DNA of 64,000 nucleotides from Verrucomicrobiia bacterium. GTDB lineage: Bacteria > Verrucomicrobiota > Verrucomicrobiia > Chthoniobacterales > Terrimicrobiaceae. The stretch covers positions 1,482-65,481 of the forward strand of contig JBAXXD010000008.1 in the NCBI GenBank assembly GCA_037128135.1, given 5' to 3'. Both the position numbers and the translations under genes were made by a program. The notes beneath the pieces are model-generated. The model saw only the letters and a list, made by a program, of their open reading frames with translations. It did not search any database and was not told where the DNA came from. This document shows, piece after piece, positions 14,489-64,000 of the stretch. The first letter of the stretch is position 1, and each line of letters starts with the position of its first letter.

Positions 14489-16495
14489 TCACGAGACTTT
14501 TTGAAGTAGGAAGCCCCAAGCCCTGCCACCGTTGGTCTGCATCGCCACCACGACCTCGTTTGCACCTTTCCTCCAGCTCGCCGGGACGGTCAAGACATGG
14601 GAGGTGATGGGGTTGGTGGCGTTCGGGTCGCAAGCAACTGTCTTGCCGTTAAGGAAGGCCTTGAATGGGGCGTCGGCTCCGATGCTCAGCCCACCCTCGA
14701 CCGCCTTGCGCAGGGTGATCCGGCAGCGGGCGTAAACCAGGCCGTCGCGGACGCCTTCGCGGTAGAGCGGCCGGATGTCGAACATGTTCGACTCATTGTT
14801 GTTCAACGGCATGATCGGGGTGAACTTGAGGTTCTTGCCGGGAAGACCGATGGCGGCGATGCCCTTGTTGCTTTTGACGATCACGGCGGCTTCAGCCCGT
14901 CCAAGGCAGCCTGGGCGGTTCTTGCATGCCATCTTTTCGGCGGCACGGTGCTTGGCCTCGATCCCCTTCCTGGCGACGGCGACCTCTTTCTGCAGCTTCG
15001 AGAGGATGTTCTCGTCCAGCGCCAGCGCCTTCTTCTCCTCCCCCACCACCAGCATCTCGGAGAGCACACGAGCGCCCTCGGTTCCCGGGAAGGCTGCAAT
15101 GAGCCTCCTCGCCTCCTTGTAGGTGGATCGCAACCGCTCCATCTGGTTTTTCAATGCCCTGGCGACTGAGAGGATATCGTCAGGATTGTCCATGCTTGGC
15201 AGGACTTTTTTCCAGTCGGCGTAGGCGCGGTAGGCGGTGGACAGCTCGATGAGATCTTTCATGACGGCGGTGAAGCGGCCGGCCTTCTTGGTGAGTTTGG
15301 CGCCGGGGCCGAAAACCACGGTCTTGGTGTCGATCTTGTCCTGGAGCCAGTTGTCGCCGCGGAACTTGTCGCGATCGGATTTCTTGCGAAAGTCCGGGAC
15401 GTCAAATGGCTTGCCGTCCTCGTGGGAGGAGCGGCAGGCGAGGATGCCGGGGATGGTGACGTCGGCGGCGCCGTAGATGTCGAAGGGACCTTTTTCGCCG
15501 GTGAGTATCTCGCGGGCGAAATAGTAGAAGGTCCAGAAATCGCCGCCGCCGTGGCCGGTCTTGGCGGCCAGTTCGCCGAGGCCCTCCCACTGGGGATTCA
15601 TCTTGAACATCGGGGAGTGGCCGCTGGCGCCGAGGCGCAGCTTGAGGCCATCGTGGCCGATCTCGGCCGCGCCAAGGGTGCCCCAGAGCCGCTGATGATG
15701 GCTGTCGTTGGTGGCCGCGCCCATGAGGTTGCGCACGACTCCACCGTTGCTCATGCGGATGAGTGAGGGGGTCATGGTGCCGCCGTTGGCTAAGGAATCG
15801 CCAAGGTAGCCGGCCAGCTTGGGGGTGGCGGGCAGGGACTCGACCCGGACGGGGCGGGTGCCGGTGATGACCATGGCCGGCCCGAGCGAATGGGTGCAGT
15901 AGTAGTGGAAGTTGAACCAGCTCCTCCAGTTGTGGACGGTGTGCCCGGGCTGTATCGGAAGACCGTCGATGTAGGTGTAGCAGAGGCTGCGGCATTCGTG
16001 GACATACTCATACTCGCCGTACATCAGCTCGCCGAAGAGGCCTTCCTTCCAGCGGGCGGCCAGCCACATGTTGGCAGCGGAGAAGGGGTAGTTCTCGGCG
16101 AGGTTGTAGACGAGCTTGCGCTTCTCGACCTCCTCGACCAGCCGGACGCCCTCGGCCATAGTGAAGAAGGAGGTGACCTCGGACATGACGTGCTTGCCCG
16201 CCTGGAGGCACTTGATGGCGTCGTCGGCGTGGGCGGGACAGAAGGTCGCCAGCAGCACGGCGTCGAAGTCCTGCTTCAGGAACTCGTCAGCGTCGGCGGT
16301 GGCGAAGGCGCCGGGGTTGGCGGCGAGGAAGTTGTCGCGCATGTGCTGGTTGTAGTCGCAGCCGGCCACAACATCGATGTTGAGGTGCTTGCAGGTGGCG
16401 TAGAAGCTCATGCCCCGGCCAAGGCCCCAGATGCCGAGGCGTATTCGCTTGTCCGTGTCGAAGATCCCGAGATGGAGTTTTGATGTCTTCTTCAT
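14489..16495 (-). CDS. Gfo/Idh/MocA-family oxidoreductase with C-terminal beta-sandwich-like module
   Basis: 668-aa ORF. Rossmann N-terminus (RLGIWGLGRGMSF...DAVLLATFCPAHADDAIKCLQAGKHVMSEV). The last ~120 aa (…VYARCRITL…FKAFLNGKTV…GANEVVVAMQTNGGRAWGFLLQ) look like a galactose-binding-like jelly roll. Confidence 0.85.
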   Translation of the reverse strand: MKKTSKLHLGIFDTDKRIRLGIWGLGRGMSFYATCKHLNIDVVAGCDYNQHMRDNFLAANPGAFATADADEFLKQDFDAVLLATFCPAHADDAIKCLQAGKHVMSEVTSFFTMAEGVRLVEEVEKRKLVYNLAENYPFSAANMWLAARWKEGLFGELMYGEYEYVHECRSLCYTYIDGLPIQPGHTVHNWRSWFNFHYYCTHSLGPAMVITGTRPVRVESLPATPKLAGYLGDSLANGGTMTPSLIRMSNGGVVRNLMGAATNDSHHQRLWGTLGAAEIGHDGLKLRLGASGHSPMFKMNPQWEGLGELAAKTGHGGGDFWTFYYFAREILTGEKGPFDIYGAADVTIPGILACRSSHEDGKPFDVPDFRKKSDRDKFRGDNWLQDKIDTKTVVFGPGAKLTKKAGRFTAVMKDLIELSTAYRAYADWKKVLPSMDNPDDILSVARALKNQMERLRSTYKEARRLIAAFPGTEGARVLSEMLVVGEEKKALALDENILSKLQKEVAVARKGIEAKHRAAEKMACKNRPGCLGRAEAAVIVKSNKGIAAIGLPGKNLKFTPIMPLNNNESNMFDIRPLYREGVRDGLVYARCRITLRKAVEGGLSIGADAPFKAFLNGKTVACDPNATNPITSHVLTVPASWRKGANEVVVAMQTNGGRAWGFLLQKVS

Positions 16496-56799: not shown

Positions 56800-58458
56800 T
56801 TGACTTCTTCTCCGCCAAACTCCGCCGTCTGGGTTGTCATTCCCGTGCACAACAACGCGGGGACAATCCGGGATGTTGCGCTTGGCTGCCGCGGGATCGT
56901 TGGCAATGTGCTGATCGTGGATGACGGCAGCCGGGACGCCGATCTGCGCGAGTTGATGTCCGGCACCGGTATCCCCGTGATCCGGCACGAGACGAACTGC
57001 GGCAAGGGGGCGGCGCTTCTCACCGGTGCCCGCGAGGTCGCGAAACGCGGCGGGACGACCATGATCGCGATCGATGGCGACGGGCAGCATGACCCGGAGG
57101 ATCTCCCGGCATTTCTTCAGACCATCCAGGAGGATCCCGACGCGATCATTATCGGCGAGCGCGACATGAGCGGCGCGAATGTCCCCGGCAGAAGCCGGTT
57201 CGGGCGGAGGTTTTCGGATTTCTGGCTCCGGCTCGAAACGGGTCTGCCGCTCCGCGACACGCAGAGCGGATTCCGCGCCTATCCCGTACGCCATTTGCTC
57301 GCGCTACCGGCCTCGGGACGCAAATTTGATTTCGAAGTGGAAATTCTCGCCCTCGCCGCCTGGGCCGGACTCACGATCCGCAACGTTCCGATCCGGGTCT
57401 GGTATCCGCCTCCTCACGAGCGCGTCACGAGCTTTCGTCCGTTCCTGGACAACCTGCTGCTCACGCACCGCCACGTGCTCATCGTGCTGCGCCGCGTTCT
57501 TCCGCTCCCGCACAGGAAGCTTGTCGCTGGCACCGCGGATCCGGCCCGGAGGAAGCGCGGCAACGCGCTCGGCTTCTGGTTTTTCACCACCGCCGTCCGG
57601 CTGACCGGGCTGCGCGGGGCCTACGGGCTTCTGTTTTTTGTTAGTGCATGGTATGTGGTGTTCGACTCCTCGATCGTGCTGGCCGCGCTGGCGTATCTCA
57701 GGCGGCGGTTCCCAGCCGATGGTCTGCTGCGCCAGCGATGGAACGTCTATCAGCTTTTCATCGCGCAGGGCCGGTGCCTCATCGACCGATACTACCTCGT
57801 GCACGGCGGCGACCGCCTCCGCTTTCACCAGAGTGGCTTTGAAAAAGTCGCCCCGCTTCTCGCCGGCGAGCGCGGCTTCATCCTGCTCACCGCACACGTC
57901 GGCAACTGGCAGTCCGCCATGATCTCGCTCGAGGGATGGAACAAAACCGTCCACCTCCTGATACGCCCGGACGACGACGACCTCAGCACAAAAAAATTCG
58001 GCCTCTACCGGGAGTCCGGCCGCATCCGGACTATTAATCCCGCCGGCTACCTCGGCGGCGTGATCGGCGTGATGGCCGCGCTGGATGCGGGGGAGATCGT
58101 CTCCGTGATGGGCGACCGGGATTACAACACGCGGCGCAAATCGGCCGCCGAATTTTTCGGGGCGCCCGCCGAGTTCCCGTGCAGCGGGTTCCTCTTTGCC
58201 CATGCCGCCCGCGTCCCGCTCGCCGTGCTTTTTTCCGCCAAGACAGGGACCTACGAATATGAGGTGCGGATCGCGGGGATCATCGAGCCGCTTGCCGGGG
58301 AGCCCAAGGCCGCGTTCCTGCGCCGCGGGGTGCAGGAATACGCCGCGTTTCTGGAGGAGCATCTCCGGCGGTATCCGCTCCAGAGTTTTTTGTTCAAGGA
58401 TGTCTGGACGGGCGCGGCGTCTCCCATTAGCGTGCCGCAGACAATCGATCCGCGATGA
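56800..58458 (+). CDS. fusion protein: GT2 glycosyltransferase + LpxL/HtrB-type (lysophospholipid) acyltransferase
   Basis: 552-aa ORF (TTG start). N-half: VVIPVHNN...IVDDGSRD...DGDGQHDP (GT2). C-half: TAHVGNWQ (HxGNW(E/Q) acyltransferase motif) preceded by TM segments. Confidence 0.8.
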   Translation: MTSSPPNSAVWVVIPVHNNAGTIRDVALGCRGIVGNVLIVDDGSRDADLRELMSGTGIPVIRHETNCGKGAALLTGAREVAKRGGTTMIAIDGDGQHDPEDLPAFLQTIQEDPDAIIIGERDMSGANVPGRSRFGRRFSDFWLRLETGLPLRDTQSGFRAYPVRHLLALPASGRKFDFEVEILALAAWAGLTIRNVPIRVWYPPPHERVTSFRPFLDNLLLTHRHVLIVLRRVLPLPHRKLVAGTADPARRKRGNALGFWFFTTAVRLTGLRGAYGLLFFVSAWYVVFDSSIVLAALAYLRRRFPADGLLRQRWNVYQLFIAQGRCLIDRYYLVHGGDRLRFHQSGFEKVAPLLAGERGFILLTAHVGNWQSAMISLEGWNKTVHLLIRPDDDDLSTKKFGLYRESGRIRTINPAGYLGGVIGVMAALDAGEIVSVMGDRDYNTRRKSAAEFFGAPAEFPCSGFLFAHAARVPLAVLFSAKTGTYEYEVRIAGIIEPLAGEPKAAFLRRGVQEYAAFLEEHLRRYPLQSFLFKDVWTGAASPISVPQTIDPR

Positions 58459-58784
58459 ACCACACCGATTTCTCCAGCGAAGAGCTCCTGCCGAAAGTCC
58501 GGGCCAGGCTCAAGGAGCTCCTTGTTTCGCACCTCGCGCTGGAAGACATCACCCCGGAGGAGATCGGCGACGATGAAGCGATTTTCGGCGAGGGACTCGG
58601 GCTCGATTCGCTCGACGGCGTGGAAATCGTGGTGCTGCTCCAGCGGCAGTTCGGCGTGAACATCAAGGAGACCGAAAAGGGGAACGACCTCTTCCGATCG
58701 ATCAATACGCTGGCGAAATACATCGTCGAAAATTCCCCGAATCCGCTCGGGGTTCCCGCCGCCGCCTCCGAAGACGAAAAGTAG
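58455..58784 (+). CDS. acyl carrier protein
   Basis: 109-aa ORF whose start overlaps the upstream stop (ATGA). Phosphopantetheine site LGLDSLDGVEIV. Confidence 0.85.
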   Translation: MNHTDFSSEELLPKVRARLKELLVSHLALEDITPEEIGDDEAIFGEGLGLDSLDGVEIVVLLQRQFGVNIKETEKGNDLFRSINTLAKYIVENSPNPLGVPAAASEDEK

Positions 58785-58788
58785 CTTT

Positions 58789-59976
58789 GTGGCGGCGATT
58801 GGCATCTCGGGGCTGGGGGCGGTTTCCTCGCTTGGCAACACGATCCCCGAGACACTGGAATCATTTCGCGTTGGGCGCACCCGGCCGGGCAGGCTGACGC
58901 TGTTCGAATCGCCGCTTGATCTTCCGGTCTTCGAGGCTGCGCGGTTTCATGCGGAGCACCCATACTCCGACGGCCACCGCACGCGGGAGATGGCGCTGCA
59001 TGCGGCGCGCGAGGCGCTGGCGGACGCCGCGCTCGACCGGACCGCTCTCGACGCCGCACGGGTCGGCATCTGCCTCGGCACAACGGTCGCCAGCCAGCTC
59101 AACGACCTCGCGTTTTACCGCAGCTACAAAACCACCGGCACGGCGCCCCTGGCCCCGGTGCGCCGCTATCTCAAGGGCAATCTTGCCGAGGCGGTTGCCG
59201 CCGGGCTGGGCGTTCGGGCGATCACCGCCACTGTCACAAACGCGTGCTCCTCGGGCGCCGATGCCATTGCCATCGGCGCGCAATGGATCGAGGCCGGGCT
59301 TTGCGACATCGTGCTCGCGGGAGGAGCGGATGAATTGAACCGGGTGCCGTTGAGCGGATTTCATGCGCTCGGCCTGAGCAGCCCGCTTCCGTGCAGGCCG
59401 TTCGACAGGCGCCGGAGCGGGCTAAACCTCGGGGAAGGTGCGGGCGTCCTCATTATGGAATCCCCCGCACATGCCGCCGCCCGCGGACATGCTCCCCGCC
59501 TCGCGCTCTGCGGGCACGGCACCGCGTGCGACGCGCACCATCTCACCGCCCCGCATCCCGAGGGGCGCGGACTGAGCGCCGCGCTCGAGCGGGCGCTGGA
59601 TCTCGCCGGACTGCGACCCGGCGACATCGCGTTCGTCAACGCGCATGGCACCGGGACGCAGGACAACGATCTCATCGAGGGCCGCGCGCTCGCCGCCGTC
59701 TTCGGCCACTCGTTGCCCGTGCTCTCGACCAAAGGCTTCACCGGCCACACGCTCGGGGCGGCGGGCGGTTTGGAAGCCGTCTTCACCGGACTCGCCCTCC
59801 GCGAACGCTGGCTCCCGCCCAGCGCCGGATTTGAGGAGCAGGACGAACGCATCCCGATCACCCCGCTCAGCGAGCGCACGGAAATTTGCGGGCGGTTTGC
59901 GATCTCCACCTCGCTCGCCTTCGGCGGCAACAACACCGCCCTTTTGATCGGCCTCACCGAAGGGGGCGCACCATGA
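58789..59976 (+). CDS. beta-ketoacyl-ACP synthase (FabF-like, catalytically complete)
   Basis: 395-aa ORF (GTG start, 4 nt after the ACP stop). Cys-His-His triad: NACSSGADA, AHGTGTQ, GHTLGAAG. Confidence 0.9.
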   Translation: MAAIGISGLGAVSSLGNTIPETLESFRVGRTRPGRLTLFESPLDLPVFEAARFHAEHPYSDGHRTREMALHAAREALADAALDRTALDAARVGICLGTTVASQLNDLAFYRSYKTTGTAPLAPVRRYLKGNLAEAVAAGLGVRAITATVTNACSSGADAIAIGAQWIEAGLCDIVLAGGADELNRVPLSGFHALGLSSPLPCRPFDRRRSGLNLGEGAGVLIMESPAHAAARGHAPRLALCGHGTACDAHHLTAPHPEGRGLSAALERALDLAGLRPGDIAFVNAHGTGTQDNDLIEGRALAAVFGHSLPVLSTKGFTGHTLGAAGGLEAVFTGLALRERWLPPSAGFEEQDERIPITPLSERTEICGRFAISTSLAFGGNNTALLIGLTEGGAP

Positions 59977-61043
59977 CCGCATTCCTCAACGGCATGGGAA
60001 TCGTCGCCTCCACGGGACGGGGCACGGCCGCCCTCCGATCGGCTCTGCAACAGGGTTGGCGGCCGCCCAACACGATCGCGCTGCCCGATGGACGCGACCT
60101 GCCGGTTTACCCGCTGCCGCCCGACGCCCTCGACGATAAATCGTTCGGACGCAAAATCCGCCGCGCCGACCGCCTCGCCAGGATGGCCGTGTTGGCCGCT
60201 GCCGACGCCCTCCGCGATGCGCGGATCCAGCCCGACCCGCGCCGGATCGGGCTCGTTGTTGCCAGCGCGTTCGGCTCCCACGCCACGACGTTTGAATTCC
60301 TCGACGAGATCCTGACCTACGGCGACGCGGAGGTTTCGCCCACCGTCTTCTCCCATTCCGTCCAGAATGCCGCCGCCGCCTATGTGGCGTCCGTCCTCGA
60401 TATCCAGGGTCCGGTGATGACGCTCACGCAAGTCCATTTCGCTTTTCACCACGCGCTCGTCCTCGCCCGCCAATGGCTGGACTCCGGGCAATGCGACCAC
60501 GTGCTCGTCGGAGGCGCTGACGAACTCGGCGGCGTCATGCGGTTCATCTGGCGGTCGCTCCTTCGCGCTCCGGCCGACGGACGGCTCCGCCCGTTTGCGT
60601 TCGCAAAAGAACCCGCGGCAATTCCCGGCGAGGGGAGCGCATTTTTTCTGCTCTCCGCCAAGCCCGGTCCCTGCGCCTGCGCGAGGGTGGAACTGATCCG
60701 GATCGCCTCGTGGGTTCCGCCCGCCACGCCGCCCGGTCTGCACATCCTGGAAGCCGACGGGACGCTCGGCGACGAATCCGGCTACGCGGCCCCGGCGGCA
60801 TCCGGCGCGCGCCTCGCCGCCTATGCGCCGGTTTTTGGCAGCATGCCCTGTGGCACCCCGCTCCAATTGGCCGCCGCCGCGCTCATGCTCCAGGAGCAGG
60901 TCTGCTTCGCGACGCCGGTGCCCGGGGACTCCGGGCTCCCCCTCTGCCTCGCCACCGCGCCCCAGCCACTCGCCTCGATCCATCTCACCCGCCTCCACTG
61001 CAACGGCTCGGCGGCACACATCCAACTCACCCATCACAATTGA
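59973..61043 (+). CDS. ketosynthase-like partner lacking the active-site Cys (chain-length-factor-like)
   Basis: ATG 59973 overlaps the KS stop (ATGA). TLTQVHFAF replaces TVTNACSSG. No HGTGT or GHxxGAxG. The SPTVFSHSVQNAAAAY motif recalls the KS-N-terminal-like (Ketoacyl-synt_2) family. Confidence 0.8.
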   Translation: MTAFLNGMGIVASTGRGTAALRSALQQGWRPPNTIALPDGRDLPVYPLPPDALDDKSFGRKIRRADRLARMAVLAAADALRDARIQPDPRRIGLVVASAFGSHATTFEFLDEILTYGDAEVSPTVFSHSVQNAAAAYVASVLDIQGPVMTLTQVHFAFHHALVLARQWLDSGQCDHVLVGGADELGGVMRFIWRSLLRAPADGRLRPFAFAKEPAAIPGEGSAFFLLSAKPGPCACARVELIRIASWVPPATPPGLHILEADGTLGDESGYAAPAASGARLAAYAPVFGSMPCGTPLQLAAAALMLQEQVCFATPVPGDSGLPLCLATAPQPLASIHLTRLHCNGSAAHIQLTHHN

Positions 61044-61051
61044 CCACCATC

Positions 61052-61315
61052 ATGACGAACGCTCCCGCCGCCAGTGAAATCGAACGCGCACTCCTCACCG
61101 AAATCTCCGGCATGTTCCCGGAGGTTCCCGACATCACCTCCGCCACGCCGCTCCAACAGCTCGGGCTCGACTCGCTGCGCCTCTTCGGGATTTTTGTCCT
61201 CATCGAAAATCAATTCGGCCTGAGACTTCTCGACGGCCCTCTCACCCGAGAAATGCTCGAAAACATTTCCTCCCTCGCCGCCGAGACCGCCCGCCGCCTC
61301 GCCGCCGAAGCCTGA
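61052..61315 (+). CDS. acyl carrier protein (second copy)
   Basis: 87-aa reading from ATG 61052 (the ORF-track 60710 start overlaps the upstream gene). LGLDSLRLFGIF phosphopantetheine site. Confidence 0.8.
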   Translation: MTNAPAASEIERALLTEISGMFPEVPDITSATPLQQLGLDSLRLFGIFVLIENQFGLRLLDGPLTREMLENISSLAAETARRLAAEA

Positions 61316-61504
61316 TCCCGCGCCGCAAGGAGCCCCTCCTAAATCAGCGCGGATGATCAGGATTTCCGCAGATTCCCAAAGCTTGTTCCTGGTGGAATCA
61401 CGCAGAGCGGAGTTGGTTGGTTGCCCGGCCCGCCGGTTTCCGAACGCACACAAGGGCCGGAAATCAAACTTGACGCCAAATCGAGAGTTCCGCACTCTCA
61501 TACA

Positions 61505-64000
61505 ATGAATTTGGCAACTTCAGATAGTGTAGCAAATGCCGGGACGGCCGCGTGGAAAATGTTCCGGCCGGCCGGCGGCGAAACAACATCCCGTTTGAGC
61601 GGATCCACGAAGGCGCTGGCGGCGAGGTATCTTTCCGGCGAGATCGGCCGCTCCATGACGGAAGACAGCCTTCATCTGTCCATGCCTGGATATCATACAT
61701 TTTGCGAGTGGGAGTGTGACTGGACGCTGGCGGGTCCGCTGATGAACAGCAGTGATTCTCCGGACGGATTGGCCGCGGAAGATTTGCTGTTAGATGGCGC
61801 TCAGACGATGGAGGAGGTCAGGCTTTCAGCAAACGTCCTGCCGGAATGTTTTCATAGTGTTCATGGAAAAATCCATTTCAAGGAATTGTTCAGTTCCGCC
61901 AAAGTTCATTCCGCCGCCTATTGCTTCACAGAAATAGATACTGCTTCCGCCTGCCTGCTGCCCTTAGTGCTTGATGGCGACTGGTATTGTTCCCTATTCG
62001 TCAACGGCGAGCTGAAACACACAGGGGCCGGATGGTCCAAAATCATGAGACTTCCGCTGAAAGCCGGCCGGAATTTGATCGGCTTTCGTATTACGGGCGG
62101 TTCCGGCGGCTGGCGCGTGGTTCTGGCCAAAGGAGAATTTCTACCACTCGAAGAAAAATGCCGGGAGCCGGATCAGGCGGAGCTGTATGCGGAAGCCGTC
62201 CGATTGATCGCCTGGAATGCTCCGCTGCGGATCATCGATGGCGAAAAATTAGTTGGTGCCGCAACGCTCAAAAAAGCGATGCGTCACATCGTTCCAGCTC
62301 TGTGCTGCACTTCTGTCAGCCACACGACATTGGATTTTGAGAAAGCGCTTGCCGTTGGTTACAAAGGCATCAGGGCGGAAATTGAAGAACGGCTTTCCCG
62401 CGGCGGGCTGGATGAATGCGGAAACACGCTTCTTCACGCGATGCTTTCCTGTCTGGATTCAGCGAAAATTTGGCACGGCAGATATCTCGATGCGTTGAAG
62501 AAACTTGCCGGCGAAGGCAAAAATGATCTCGCTGGCATCATAGAGTCGTTGAATAACGTGCCGGAAAACCCGCCGGAGACGTTCCGGGAGGCGGTGCAGT
62601 CGTTGTGGATGTTATGGGATTTCCAGCGGCTGTGCGGCAACTGGAGCGGCATCGGACGGATCGACAAAATGCTTGGGCCGTATCTGAAACGCGATCTGGC
62701 GGCCGGCATAATCGACAGAGATGAGGCGCGGGAGCTGATCGCCCATTTCTGGATAAAAGGTTGTGAATGGATCACCGCGAATGCTGGCTCGGATAACGGC
62801 GATGCCCAGTTTTATCAGAACATCGTTCTCGGCGGGGTCGATGAAGCCGGAAATGACGTTGCTAACGAAGTCACTTATCTCGTCCTGGATGTCGTCGAAG
62901 AACTGCATATTTCCGACTTTCCCATCGCGGTCCGCATCTCGAAAAAGACAGATGAAATGCTTCTGCGCCGGATTGCGGAAATCCAGCGGCTCGGCGGCGG
63001 GATCATCGCGGTTTACAACGATGACCGGATTATTCCGAATCTGGTCCATTTCGGATACCCGCTGGCGGATGCCAGAGATTTTGCCAACGACGGTTGCTGG
63101 GAGATCCTGATCCCCGGCAAAACCTGTTTTGGCTACCTCGCTTTCGACGCCCTGAAAATCCTCCAGGACGTGCTCGGACTCGATGCTTCAGACGCCGACC
63201 TCAGCCAATACACCTGTTTCGATGAGTTATTCGAAGGTTTTAAGATAAAACTGAACAACCAAATCGTGCAAATGACCAGCCGTGCGGTTACAGCATTAAA
63301 AAACAATGTCACCCCCACTGTGCTGGTCGATATGCTGATTGACGGCTGTATTGAAAAGGGGCGTTCGTATTATCATCTCGGCCCGAAATACACGGCAGAG
63401 TCGCCACACGCAGGGGGGCTTCCGGACGTCGCCAACAGCCTGCAAGTGATCAAGAAACTGGTTTATGAAGATCAGGAATTTTCTCTGGCAGAACTGGCTG
63501 ACATTCTCCGTAACAACTGGGAGGGGCATGATGAAACCCGCCGGAAAATCTGTTCGCGCTTTGATTTCTACGGCAACGATTCGGAAGCCAGCAACGCGAT
63601 GATTCAAAAGGTTTTTGATGCTTACACCGGTCTGGTCGCTGAAATCCCTTCAAACGACGGGGTGCTTTTCCCTGCTGGAATCAGCACCTTCGGACGCGAG
63701 GCCAGTGCTTTTCTGCCGGGCCGGACAGCTTCGGCGGCGGGATCCAAAAAAGGAGATATTCTGGCGTTGAATTTCAGCCCGTCGCCCGGCACCGACAAAA
63801 GCGGCCCCACCGCCGTCATCAAGTCGCACTGCGCGGTGGACTTTTCCAGGCTGCCCGGCGGCACCGCGCTGGAATTGAAGATCGTTCCTTCGTCATTACA
63901 GGGAGAAAAGGGGATTGCCGCGCTGGTTGGACTCATGAAGACCTTCGTCGATCTCGGCGGAATATTCATGCAGATTGACGCGATGGATACCGCGATGCTC
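61505..64000 (+). CDS. glycyl radical enzyme (PFL-like/glycerol-dehydratase family) with ~215-aa N-terminal extension; 3' end outside window
   Basis: Translated by hand. The frame is open from 61343 to the window end, so it is absent from the ORF track. Motifs: DAQFYQNIVLGG, FANDGCWE (GCxE thiyl loop), ISTFGREASAFLPGRTASAAG, GGIFMQIDAMD. The start is uncertain (ATG at 61505, 61559, 61655 or 61682). Confidence 0.85.
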   Translation, partial: MNLATSDSVANAGTAAWKMFRPAGGETTSRLSGSTKALAARYLSGEIGRSMTEDSLHLSMPGYHTFCEWECDWTLAGPLMNSSDSPDGLAAEDLLLDGAQTMEEVRLSANVLPECFHSVHGKIHFKELFSSAKVHSAAYCFTEIDTASACLLPLVLDGDWYCSLFVNGELKHTGAGWSKIMRLPLKAGRNLIGFRITGGSGGWRVVLAKGEFLPLEEKCREPDQAELYAEAVRLIAWNAPLRIIDGEKLVGAATLKKAMRHIVPALCCTSVSHTTLDFEKALAVGYKGIRAEIEERLSRGGLDECGNTLLHAMLSCLDSAKIWHGRYLDALKKLAGEGKNDLAGIIESLNNVPENPPETFREAVQSLWMLWDFQRLCGNWSGIGRIDKMLGPYLKRDLAAGIIDRDEARELIAHFWIKGCEWITANAGSDNGDAQFYQNIVLGGVDEAGNDVANEVTYLVLDVVEELHISDFPIAVRISKKTDEMLLRRIAEIQRLGGGIIAVYNDDRIIPNLVHFGYPLADARDFANDGCWEILIPGKTCFGYLAFDALKILQDVLGLDASDADLSQYTCFDELFEGFKIKLNNQIVQMTSRAVTALKNNVTPTVLVDMLIDGCIEKGRSYYHLGPKYTAESPHAGGLPDVANSLQVIKKLVYEDQEFSLAELADILRNNWEGHDETRRKICSRFDFYGNDSEASNAMIQKVFDAYTGLVAEIPSNDGVLFPAGISTFGREASAFLPGRTASAAGSKKGDILALNFSPSPGTDKSGPTAVIKSHCAVDFSRLPGGTALELKIVPSSLQGEKGIAALVGLMKTFVDLGGIFMQIDAMDTAML

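What the first reader, a model, noticed from the sequence alone, without database searches (positions are those of the whole stretch)
61505..64000. Glycyl radical enzyme with an unusual ~215-residue N-terminal extension containing a beta-sandwich-like module
The frame is open from 61343 to the window end, giving 832 codons from ATG 61505 with the Gly-radical domain still to come. From ~62170 onward it is a clear PFL-like/dehydratase-type GRE (DGCWE thiyl loop, GGIFMQIDAMD). Upstream there is no in-frame start near the domain boundary; the nearest Met lies inside the module. The extension includes a jelly-roll-like segment similar to the C-terminus of the oxidoreductase at 14489-14850. I know of no characterised GRE carrying a carbohydrate-binding-like N-terminal domain. 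The gene also sits in lower-GC DNA.
Basis: partly seen in the sequence, partly recalled or inferred. Interest (0 to 1): 0.7.

Follow-up and report, generated by a model that had tools for sequence, protein, structure and literature searches.

The report
Radical enzyme with inserted sugar-binding-like domain
This is a real oxygen-sensitive radical enzyme gene (a glycyl radical enzyme) carrying a roughly 160-residue beta-sandwich domain of the kind found on sugar-cleaving enzymes; the domain is spliced in just after the enzyme's conserved N-terminal helix, which makes it a rare but modest variant of a known enzyme class.

Summary
The ORF is real. ATG 61505 opens an 832-codon frame that is cut by the window end. 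It is identical to NCBI MEI6070760.1, a partial "pyruvate formate lyase family protein" from a Verrucomicrobiae MAG. That record supplies the missing Gly loop, VRISGWSARF.

The "N-terminal extension" is really an insertion. Residues 28-53 (SRLSGSTKALAARYLSGEIGRSM) carry the conserved N-terminal motif of a large uncharacterised GRE family of 700-750 aa, mainly from Lentisphaerota. In that family the motif lies about 6-18 residues before the YAEAVRLIA helix. Here about 155-160 residues separate them.

The inserted module (about residues 54-215) folds with confidence as a beta-sandwich (pLDDT 88.7). It most resembles GH2 N-terminal and PA14 sugar-binding domains. It is 44% identical to a domain inserted in a GH127 glycosidase, and it evolves under purifying selection (dN/dS 0.23-0.44).

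Module-bearing GREs form one small clade found in many independent assemblies, often beside glycosidases, AraC regulators and an alcohol dehydrogenase. The gene keeps about 0.51-0.54 GC in hosts of 0.47-0.64 GC and sits in unrelated neighbourhoods, which points to horizontal transfer.

Substrate and module function remain inferred. I rate it a new variant of a known kind, of moderate interest.

The parts
61458..61504 (+). A 47-bp upstream segment that travels with the gene. It is conserved with the 93%-identical copy in locus L001 and contains TTGACG. Sequence further upstream is unrelated between the two contigs.
   Evidence: blastn homology between the window and L001 starts at window position 61458. 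The sigma-70 consensus scan found no promoter here.
61505..61663 (+). The native N-terminus of the GRE (residues 1-53). It includes the family motif SRLSGSTKALAARYLSGEIGRSM at residues 28-53 (61586-61663). The start codon is ATG 61505.
   Evidence: Residues about 26-50 of the short-form homologues match residues 28-53 here at 54-77% identity. In the 117-sequence alignment L31, L38 and G45 are invariant, and R30, T35, A39, G48 and R49 are nearly invariant. Nucleotide conservation with the 79%-identical L003 begins 2 bp before the ATG. NCBI annotates the same start in P0211.
61664..62149 (+). The inserted beta-sandwich module (about residues 54-215). The unit shared with GH127 proteins spans residues 63-222, which is 61691-62170.
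   Evidence: The module is absent from more than 100 short-form homologues and present in P0001-P0009, P0122, P0123 and P0128. The AF2 model of residues 50-222 has pLDDT 88.7 and pTM 0.85 with about 10 strands. Foldseek matches GH2 N-terminal and PA14 domains at E 3e-5 and TMq about 0.5. It is 44% identical to P0125 residues 531-693, E 1e-39. dN/dS is 0.23-0.44.
62150..64000 (+). The GRE catalytic core (residues 216-832), cut by the window end. It comprises the PFL-like barrel and the start of the glycyl-radical domain.
   Evidence: Pfam PF02901 scores 335.7 bits and PF01228 scores 36.8 bits. The full-length AF2 model has pLDDT 85.8, and Foldseek matches 1,2-propanediol dehydratase, glycerol dehydratase, HypD and CutC at E 1e-37 to 1e-30. 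The remaining 29 residues, including VRISGWSARF, are seen in the identical record P0211.
62321..62323 (+). His273 in the SVSHTT motif. It aligns with His166 of the Roseburia 1,2-propanediol dehydratase.
   Evidence: HMMER alignment to 5i2a. The residue is invariant in the 20-sequence alignment and nearly invariant in the 117-sequence alignment.
63095..63103 (+). The thiyl-radical loop Cys531-Trp532-Glu533 (GCWE). It is equivalent to the GCVE loop of dehydratase and lyase GREs.
   Evidence: Alignment to 5i2a and 2f3o. The residues are invariant in the 20-sequence alignment and nearly invariant in the 117-sequence alignment.
14498..14791 (-). C-terminal beta-sandwich domain of the GFO_IDH_MocA/GH109-like oxidoreductase. 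It is a distant member of the same domain superfamily as the GRE module.
   Evidence: hmmsearch with an 82-sequence module profile against all window ORFs gave E 2.3e-6 and 22.4 bits, with the next-best ORF at E 2.

Best explanation
Shown:
- The gene encodes one polypeptide. It belongs to an uncharacterised, mainly Lentisphaerota family of glycyl radical enzymes.
- The core has the standard radical relay. The glycine lies in VRISGWSARF, just beyond the window end, and the thiyl cysteine is C531 in a Cys-x-Glu loop (GCWE). His273 occupies the position of the diol-dehydratase histidine.
- In one small sub-clade, a roughly 155-160-residue beta-sandwich domain was inserted once between the conserved first N-terminal helix motif (residues 28-53) and the YAEAVRLIA helix (residue 228 onward).
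- The same domain subfamily is inserted in cytoplasmic-looking GH127 glycosidases. More distant relatives decorate other carbohydrate-active enzymes.
- The domain is under purifying selection.

Inferred:
- The enzyme is activated by a separate radical-SAM activase encoded elsewhere in the genome.
- It carries out a 1,2-elimination (dehydration or C-X cleavage) on a hydroxylated, sugar-derived small molecule. The carbonyl product is handled by an adjacent alcohol dehydrogenase.
- The module is a context-independent accessory domain. It most likely binds a sugar or glycoside moiety, either to recruit or orient the substrate or to sense a ligand.
- The gene reached this high-GC Verrucomicrobiae genome by horizontal transfer from a Lentisphaerota-like donor.
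For: Anatomy:
- Pfam, NCBIfam, PDB and Foldseek all place the core among eliminase GREs.
- The insertion is bracketed by family-conserved sequence.
- No stop codon or frameshift occurs in the window copy or in nine full-length orthologues from JGI, ENA, Logan and NCBI assemblies.
- dN/dS is 0.23-0.44 for the module and 0.13-0.27 for the core.

Single origin:
- Window plus P0001-P0009 are monophyletic in a neighbour-joining tree of the core. Adding the split form P0066/P0122 brings in only one short form.
- All module-bearing GRE fragments share the same insertion site.

Nature of the module:
- The AF2 model has pLDDT 88.7.
- Foldseek top hits are LacZ and beta-glucuronidase domain 1, the GH3 BcpE2 PA14 domain, and the Cea1A adhesin.
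- There are 79 relatives among 1.84 billion representative proteins. Those scanned carry GH127, GHL6/GH42M, GH16, BNR and CBM4_9 domains.
- It is 44% identical to the insert in GH127 protein P0125.
- Some relatives give sub-threshold PA14, GH2_N, BetaGal_ABD2 and RhaB_D2 hits.

Genomic context:
- Long forms lie beside AraC plus Zn-ADH plus GH106, beside GH43, SASA and Rha78A_N, and beside AraC plus a GH95-like gene.
- Short forms show AraC-GRE-activase-Fe-ADH next to a sugar transporter and GH31, and GRE-activase.

Horizontal transfer:
- Gene GC is 0.51-0.54 in hosts of 0.47-0.64 GC.
- The window copy is 93% identical at nucleotide level to L001, with unrelated flanks.
Against: - No sugar-binding Pfam model reaches threshold on the module. 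Fold matches are only TMq about 0.5 at 8-17% identity, and beta-sandwiches serve many roles.
- No activase lies in the 64-kb window or next to any of the five long-form loci examined.
- NCBIfam scores are far below every subfamily and equivalog cut-off.
- The Asp447 equivalent of glycerol dehydratase is not conserved, so the chemistry cannot be read off known enzymes.
I could not see where the module sits relative to the active-site funnel, the dimer interface or the Gly loop.
- The gene lies at the end of a MAG contig, so a chimeric join at about 61458 in this particular assembly cannot be excluded.
Confidence: 0.55

Rival explanations
1. The module is real and translated, but its role is protein-protein rather than ligand binding. 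It could act as an extra oligomerisation surface, as a docking or shielding element for the activase or the Gly-radical domain, or as a tether to a partner enzyme.
For: The insertion site lies in the N-terminal helical region. The review PMC6325248 says this region contributes to GRE dimerisation, and the known GRE add-ons it describes (encapsulation peptides, the approximately 350-aa CutC extension, the approximately 60-aa insertion in propanediol dehydratases) are organisational rather than catalytic. The module evolves faster than the core. No sugar-binding model passes threshold.
Against: The same domain subfamily, at 44% identity over its whole length, is inserted in an unrelated GH127 enzyme. 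More distant relatives sit on many different CAZymes. This argues for a host-independent function such as ligand binding. No microcompartment shell genes occur in any neighbourhood examined.
Confidence: 0.27
2. The module is a tolerated passenger. A mobile beta-sandwich domain landed in a permissive surface loop and contributes nothing to function.
For: The variant is rare, with only about four clusters at 50% identity among 1.84 billion representative proteins. Closely related short forms evidently work without the module. Selective constraint on the module is looser than on the core.
Against: dN/dS is 0.23-0.26 at dS of about 0.8-1.1, which shows sustained purifying selection. The module is retained in lineages that have diverged to 48% module identity (P0122, P0123). 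It is also retained after transfer into hosts with different GC content.
Confidence: 0.1
3. This is an annotation or assembly artefact. Either translation really starts near 62150, so that the module is a separate or dead upstream gene, or the architecture comes from a chimeric assembly or a sequencing error.
For: In-frame GTG 62117 and TTG 62204 exist. The gene sits at a contig end directly after a sharp GC shift. Some database entries (P0122+P0066, P0123, P0121) are split or truncated.
Against: The family's conserved N-terminal motif lies upstream of the module, in the same frame. Nine uninterrupted orthologues of 857-890 aa come from independent samples and pipelines. The module is under purifying selection. 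In L001 the gene lies inside a 116-kb contig with both flanks present. A start at 62117 or 62204 would delete a motif that is invariant across 117 homologues.
Confidence: 0.03

Closest known systems
B12-independent diol and glycerol dehydratase-type glycyl radical enzymes (Roseburia inulinivorans 1,2-propanediol dehydratase, PDB 5i2a/5i2g; Clostridium butyricum glycerol dehydratase, 1r8w; HypD, 6vxc)
   Same: They share the ten-stranded barrel fold (Foldseek E 1e-37 to 1e-35, about 720 aligned columns). They share the Cys-x-Glu thiyl loop, the His at the SVSHTT position and the RVxG-type Gly loop. Some loci in the family also have an adjacent alcohol dehydrogenase and activase.
   Different: Identity is only 22-25%. 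About 70 positions of the Pfam PFL-like profile (88-156) are missing. The loop is GCWE rather than GCVE, and the Asp447 equivalent is absent. Scores are far below the TIGR01774 and equivalog cut-offs. None of these enzymes carries a beta-sandwich domain.
The uncharacterised short-form GRE family of Lentisphaerota, Victivallales and Planctomycetota MAGs (for example HCE43218.1/OGV55608.1 = P0010, 715 aa)
   Same: Identity over the core is 56-70%. They share the same N-terminal motif RLSxxTRxLAARYLSGEIGRS, the same catalytic residues, and the same kind of neighbourhood with AraC regulators, glycosidases and alcohol dehydrogenases.
   Different: They lack the approximately 155-160-residue module. 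In them the N-terminal motif lies only about 6-18 residues before the YAEAVRLIA helix.
Known add-ons of microcompartment-associated GREs: short N-terminal encapsulation peptides, the approximately 350-aa N-terminal extension of GRM2 CutC, and the approximately 60-aa insertion in GRM3-5 propanediol dehydratases (PMC6325248)
   Same: These show that extra sequence at or near the N-terminus of a GRE is tolerated and already documented.
   Different: Those add-ons are helical peptides or a degenerate copy of the GRE N-terminal region, and they are linked to shell-protein loci. This module is an all-beta domain of CAZyme origin, and no shell genes were seen nearby.
GH2 N-terminal sugar-binding jelly-roll and PA14 domains (LacZ domain 1, beta-glucuronidases, the GH3 BcpE2 PA14 insert, the Cea1A adhesin)
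   Same: These are the best fold matches of the module model (E 3e-5, TMq 0.45-0.54). Relatives of the module carry a PA14-like 'sDDg..vWlNG' strand motif and give sub-threshold PA14 and GH2_N hits. PA14 is also known as an inserted domain in glycosidases; this last point is from my own knowledge.
   Different: Identity is 8-17%. No Pfam model reaches threshold on the window module. No ligand-binding residues could be assigned.
GH127-family proteins carrying the same inserted domain (P0125 from GCA_964392985.1; P0190)
   Same: P0125 is 44% identical to the module over 163 residues (E 1e-39). In these proteins the domain is likewise inserted inside the host protein, between the GH127 middle domain and the C-terminal IYRGPvLL domain.
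   Different: The host enzyme is a glycoside hydrolase, not a radical enzyme.

Membership tests
Glycyl radical enzyme superfamily | A PFL-like barrel domain scoring above the Pfam gathering threshold, with a GRE fold | tested here: met
   PF02901 scores 335.7 bits against a cut-off of 24.3. The AF2 model matches GRE structures at E 1e-37.
Glycyl radical enzyme superfamily | A C-terminal glycyl-radical domain with the RVxG glycine loop | tested here: met
   PF01228 scores 36.8 bits against a cut-off of 22.2 on the truncated part. The loop itself lies beyond the window. It is present as VRISGWSARF in P0211, whose first 832 residues are identical to the window protein, and in all aligned homologues.
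Glycyl radical enzyme superfamily | A conserved thiyl-radical cysteine on the Cys loop | tested here: met
   C531 aligns with the Cys of GCVE in 5i2a and 2f3o. It is invariant in the 20-sequence alignment and nearly invariant in the 117-sequence alignment.
Glycyl radical enzyme superfamily | A cognate radical-SAM activating enzyme | tested here: inconclusive
   tblastn with the L007 activase found none in the window, and none lies next to the five long-form loci examined. An activase is adjacent in short-form loci L007 and L009. The rest of this genome is not available.
PFL2/glycerol-dehydratase subfamily (TIGR01774) and its characterised equivalogs (HypD, CutC, HpsG/HpfG, indoleacetate and HPA decarboxylases, PflB) | An NCBIfam score above the curated cut-off | tested here: not met
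   TIGR01774 scores 291 against 678, HypD 268 against 1100, CutC 204 against 1050, and all others score lower.
Eliminase-type (dehydratase/lyase) GREs | A Cys-x-Glu motif, with the Glu acting as general base, plus an active-site His at the diol-dehydratase position | tested here: met
   GCWE (C531, E533) and H273 align with GCVE and His166 of 5i2a. The catalytic roles of these residues are taken from established knowledge of glycerol dehydratase and propanediol dehydratase, not tested here.
Glycerol / 1,2-propanediol dehydratase | The Asp447 equivalent (the GWHD segment) of the diol-binding site | tested here: not met
   The alignment places F542-G543 (F-S in P0004) opposite H-D.
PA14 / GH2_N / galactose-binding-like sugar-binding domains | A match to the Pfam model above threshold | tested here: not met
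   The window module gives no hit even at E up to 10. Only 3 of 36 relatives hit PA14, best E 6e-4, and 2 hit GH2_N, all below threshold.
PA14 / GH2_N / galactose-binding-like sugar-binding domains | Beta-sandwich or jelly-roll fold similarity | tested here: met
   The Foldseek top 50 hits are GH2 domain 1, GH3 PA14, GH31 and Cea1A, at E 3e-5 to 2e-4 and TMq 0.35-0.54, using a model with pLDDT 88.7.
Carbohydrate-binding module (functional sense) | Demonstrated binding of a carbohydrate ligand | not testable with these tools
   The only evidence is association: relatives of the module sit on GH127, GH16, GHL6, BNR and CBM4_9 proteins.
Microcompartment (GRM) GRE add-ons | A helical encapsulation peptide or duplicated GRE N-terminal region, with shell-protein genes in the locus | tested here: not met
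   The module is all-beta. No BMC shell Pfam families appear in any of the eleven neighbourhoods listed. The defining features are taken from PMC6325248.

The most novel reading that the evidence does not exclude
This GRE clade acts directly on a carbohydrate: a free deoxy- or anhydro-sugar, a glycoside or a short oligosaccharide imported into the cytoplasm. The inserted beta-sandwich would then be a true carbohydrate-binding module that positions the substrate at the radical active site. That would make it the first glycyl radical enzyme with a CBM, and a radical route in anaerobic glycan catabolism by PVC-group bacteria.
Probability: 0.13. Interest if true: 0.8.

Novelty: new variant of a known kind. 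Interest (0 to 1): 0.42.

Why it matters
GREs carry out difficult anaerobic chemistry, and new substrates are still being discovered for them. The most recent include sugar-phosphate derivatives, shown by the PflD and YbiW structures released in 2024.

A GRE that has captured a domain otherwise seen on glycosidases, and that sits among rhamnosidase, fucosidase-like and arabinofuranosidase-type genes next to an alcohol dehydrogenase, marks a large uncharacterised GRE family as a candidate for radical steps in polysaccharide-derived sugar breakdown. The family belongs to PVC-group bacteria: Lentisphaerota, Planctomycetota and Verrucomicrobiota.

The long and short forms provide a natural with-and-without-module comparison. 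The same domain inserted in GH127 enzymes offers an independent way to learn what the domain binds.

If the module turns out to be only structural, this is a curiosity of domain shuffling plus a clear case of single-gene horizontal transfer.

Tried and rejected
- Pairwise BLASTP and hhalign with the shallow 10-sequence profile found no link between the module and the oxidoreductase C-terminus. Only a broader profile did.
- The first MAFFT alignment of 20 sequences misplaced the short-form N-terminal motif against the last strands of the module. This was corrected with local BLAST and with the 117-sequence alignment.
- The second and third homologous-protein searches, using module profiles, returned only 4 and 7 short proteins. 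They added little beyond the representative search.
- Literature searches found nothing on this clade or on this architecture. The term pairs were GRE with Lentisphaerae, Victivallales, carbohydrate-binding, PA14, and domain insertion or beta-sandwich.
- The sigma-70 promoter and terminator scan of 61250-61700 found nothing.
- tblastn for an activase in the window found nothing.
- Model coordinates are not exposed to run_python. I could not measure how the module is placed against the barrel.
- I considered a mobile cassette. A 21-nt inverted repeat brackets the gene in L001, but its left arm lies outside the segment shared with the window and its chance probability is not negligible. I left it as an aside.
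- I considered a microcompartment encapsulation role and rejected it: the fold is all-beta and no shell genes are nearby.
Full report

The + frame is open from 61343 to the window end, and ATG 61505 gives 832 codons. Pfam finds PFL-like at residues 271-729 (E 8e-100), with a weak extra match at residues 224-269 to profile positions 42-87. It also finds the beginning of the Gly_radical domain at 756-832. The NDGCWE loop and GGIFMQIDAMD are present. GC falls from about 0.60-0.73 to 0.51-0.56 at about 61500. The gene's GC3 is 0.62, against 0.75-0.85 for its neighbours.

The window protein is identical over all 832 residues to P0211. That protein is NCBI MEI6070760.1, [quoted passage not shown], 861 aa, on a 65,568-bp contig. 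The deposited record uses the same start codon and adds 29 residues containing the glycyl loop VRISGWSARF. The source contig itself ends 14 codons before the stop seen in orthologues.

**2. The extension is an insertion.**

A search with the whole protein returned two groups:
- Nine close relatives of 857-890 aa, at 72-94% identity, covering 97-100% of the query.
- More than 100 proteins of 700-750 aa, at 56-70% identity, covering only about 73-80% of the query. These come from Lentisphaerota, Victivallales, Planctomycetota and similar MAGs.

Local BLAST of the short forms' first 130 residues against the window protein gave two blocks. Their residues about 26-50 (RLSxxTRxLAARYLSGEIGRS) match window residues 28-53 at 54-77% identity. 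Their residues about 56-130 match window residues 213-290. In the short forms the two blocks lie about 6-18 residues apart; here they lie about 160 apart.

The 117-sequence alignment agrees. L31, L38 and G45 are invariant, and R30, T35, A39, G48 and R49 are nearly invariant. Conservation then resumes at P222.

So residues 1-53 are the enzyme's own N-terminus, and residues about 54-215 are foreign. This answers the start-codon question. A start near 62150 would remove a motif conserved across the whole family. In-frame GTG 62117 and TTG 62204 exist, but there is no in-frame ATG between 62045 and 62279. Nucleotide conservation with the 79%-identical L003 copy begins 2 bp before ATG 61505, and the MNLAT start is conserved in L001, L002 and L003.

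**3. Is the module a working part of the protein?**

Nine orthologues from independent JGI, ENA, Logan and NCBI assemblies keep the frame open through the module.

| Comparison | Module dN/dS | Module dS | Core dN/dS |
|---|---|---|---|
| window vs L003 | 0.23 | 1.08 | 0.13 |
| L001 vs L003 | 0.26 | 0.82 | 0.13 |
| window vs L001 | 0.44 | 0.16 | 0.27 |

These values show that the module is less constrained than the barrel but clearly under purifying selection.

More divergent carriers also exist. P0122 has a 48%-identical module and lies on the same 5,741-bp contig as the core fragment P0066. P0123 and P0128 are further fragments. All have the module at the same site behind the LAARYLxGEIGR motif.

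In a neighbour-joining tree of the core, the window protein plus P0001-P0009 form one clade. Adding P0066 enlarges the clade by only one short form, P0013. A single insertion event is the simplest reading. This tree is a quick distance tree, not a rigorous test.

**4. What is the module?**

No Pfam model hits it. A profile of the ten GRE modules was searched against 1.84 billion representative proteins and found 79 relatives at E <= 1e-3. Apart from the GRE carriers, the relatives I scanned are multidomain carbohydrate-active proteins:
- GH127 (P0125, P0190)
- GHL6/GH42M-like
- GH16
- BNR or sialidase-like proteins
- CBM4_9-containing proteins

The closest is P0125, at 44% identity over 163 residues (E 1e-39). 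There the domain is again inserted inside the host, between the GH127 middle domain and the C-terminal IYRGPvLL domain. P0125 has no obvious signal peptide.

AlphaFold2 on residues 50-222, with a 36-sequence alignment, gave pLDDT 88.7 and pTM 0.85 with an approximately ten-strand beta-sandwich. Foldseek against the PDB puts the N-terminal sugar-binding jelly-roll of GH2 enzymes (LacZ, beta-glucuronidases), the PA14 domain of GH3 BcpE2 and the PA14 adhesin Cea1A on top. These matches have E 3e-5 to 2e-4, TMq about 0.35-0.54 and 8-17% identity. Some relatives give sub-threshold PA14, GH2_N, BetaGal_ABD2 and RhaB_D2 hits.

BLASTP and a shallow hhalign profile found nothing.

**5. What is the core?**

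The full-length model has pLDDT 85.8 and pTM 0.86. It matches 1,2-propanediol dehydratase, glycerol dehydratase, HypD, CutC, PflD/YbiW and IseG at E 1e-37 to 1e-30 and 20-25% identity. Sequence search of the PDB ranks the same enzymes.

Residue equivalences from the alignment:
- C531 and E533 (GCWE) align with GCVE.
- H273 aligns with His166 of the propanediol dehydratase.
- The Asp447 equivalent of glycerol dehydratase is not conserved.

All NCBIfam scores are far below cut-off: TIGR01774 scores 291 against 678 and HypD 268 against 1100. About 70 PFL-like profile positions (88-156) are skipped. The protein is therefore a GRE with eliminase hallmarks, but it is not a member of any characterised subfamily.

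**6. Context and mobility.**

In the window the gene follows an unrelated lipid-type cluster: a GT2 plus lipid-A acyltransferase fusion, two ketosynthases and an ACP. No activase lies in the 64 kb.

Long-form neighbourhoods differ from each other:
- CstA downstream in L001
- Housekeeping genes around P0001
- AraC plus a GH95-like gene in L003
- AraC, Zn-ADH, GRE, AraC and GH106 in L008
- GH43, SASA and Rha78A_N around P0002

Short-form neighbourhoods:
- AraC, GRE, activase and Fe-ADH beside an SSF transporter and GH31 in L007
- GRE and activase in L009
- Sulfatase, GH32 and AraC in L005

Gene GC compared with flanking GC:

| Locus | Gene GC | Flank GC |
|---|---|---|
| window | 0.54 | 0.64 |
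| L001 | 0.535 | 0.61-0.62 |
| L003 | 0.51 | 0.47-0.48 |

Window and L001 are 93% identical at nucleotide level from 61458 (47 bp upstream of the ATG) onward, with unrelated flanks. This pattern fits horizontal transfer of a single gene. A chimeric join in this MAG contig cannot be strictly excluded, but in L001 the gene is embedded with both flanks in a 116-kb contig.

**7. Most likely mechanism.**

The following are shown: the anatomy, the catalytic motifs, the insertion, its CAZyme origin, the selective constraint, and the glycan-related context.

The following are inferred. An activase encoded elsewhere installs the glycyl radical at the Gly of VRISGWSARF. C531 relays the radical. E533 and H273 assist a 1,2-elimination on a hydroxylated, sugar-derived substrate, and the carbonyl product is reduced or oxidised by the neighbouring dehydrogenase.

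The same domain subfamily serves two unrelated host enzymes, a GRE and a GH127 glycosidase. A host-independent role such as binding a sugar moiety is therefore more likely than a GRE-specific structural role. A protein-protein role remains a serious rival. I could not inspect model coordinates to see where the module sits.

**8. Comparison with what is known, and novelty.**

Documented GRE add-ons are microcompartment encapsulation peptides, the approximately 350-aa GRM2 CutC extension (a degenerate GRE N-terminal copy) and an approximately 60-aa insertion in GRM3-5 propanediol dehydratases (PMC6325248). None is a beta-sandwich of CAZyme type, and no shell genes occur near this family.

Neither the PDB nor the searchable literature shows a GRE with such a domain. 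The protein is already in NCBI under a generic name.

I rate it a new variant of a known kind. It is a rare architecture, with about four clusters at 50% identity, inside a sizeable uncharacterised GRE family. Interest is moderate. The architecture gives a concrete lead to a possible carbohydrate-linked GRE function, but nothing here shows new chemistry.

Noticed in passing
window 61505-64000; P0010-P0120: The short-form parent family is itself uncharacterised. Its members are 700-750 aa, mainly from Lentisphaerota, Victivallales and Planctomycetota. The family scores below all NCBIfam cut-offs, has a GCWE thiyl loop and lacks about 70 PFL-like profile positions. AraC regulators, an activase, Fe- or Zn-dependent alcohol dehydrogenases, glycosidases and sulfatases recur as neighbours.
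   Followed up: partly
window 61458-64000; L001 9900-12600: The gene behaves as a horizontally transferred single gene. Its GC is 0.51-0.54 whatever the host GC (0.47-0.64). The window and L001 copies are 93% identical at nucleotide level, with unrelated flanks. Homology starts 47 bp upstream of the ATG, in a segment containing TTGACG.
   Followed up: partly
L001 9850-9870 and 12583-12603: A 21-nt inverted repeat (86% complementary) brackets the GRE gene in L001, about 97 bp upstream of the ATG and 9 bp after the stop. The left arm lies outside the segment shared with the window. It could be chance or a local cassette boundary.
   Followed up: no
window 14489-16495 (-): A 668-aa GFO_IDH_MocA/GH109_C-like oxidoreductase ends in a beta-sandwich domain at 14498-14791 (-). 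That domain is distantly related to the GRE module (profile E 2.3e-6). A sugar-oxidoreductase carrying a CAZyme-type accessory domain is typical of PVC bacteria.
   Followed up: partly
L010 6001-8406 (P0125); P0190: GH127-family proteins without an obvious signal peptide carry the same module, inserted between the GH127 middle domain and the C-terminal domain. The module therefore behaves as a nested, insertable domain in at least two unrelated enzyme families.
   Followed up: partly
window 56800-61315 (+): Directly upstream of the GRE lies a lipid or polyketide-like cluster. It comprises a GT2 fused to a lipid-A-type acyltransferase (56800-58458), two ketosynthase-like genes (58789-59976 and 59886-61043, overlapping by 91 bp) and a small ACP (61052-61315).
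   Followed up: no
P0122 + P0066 (same 5,741-bp ENA contig); P0121; P0123: Several database entries for divergent long forms are split or truncated by frameshifts right after or inside the module. These may be assembly errors or genuine decay of the long form in some lineages.
   Followed up: no
window end (64000) / NCBI contig end: The source MAG contig breaks inside the GRE gene, 14 codons before the stop. An assembly break at that point is what one would expect if near-identical copies of this gene exist in several co-occurring genomes.
   Followed up: no
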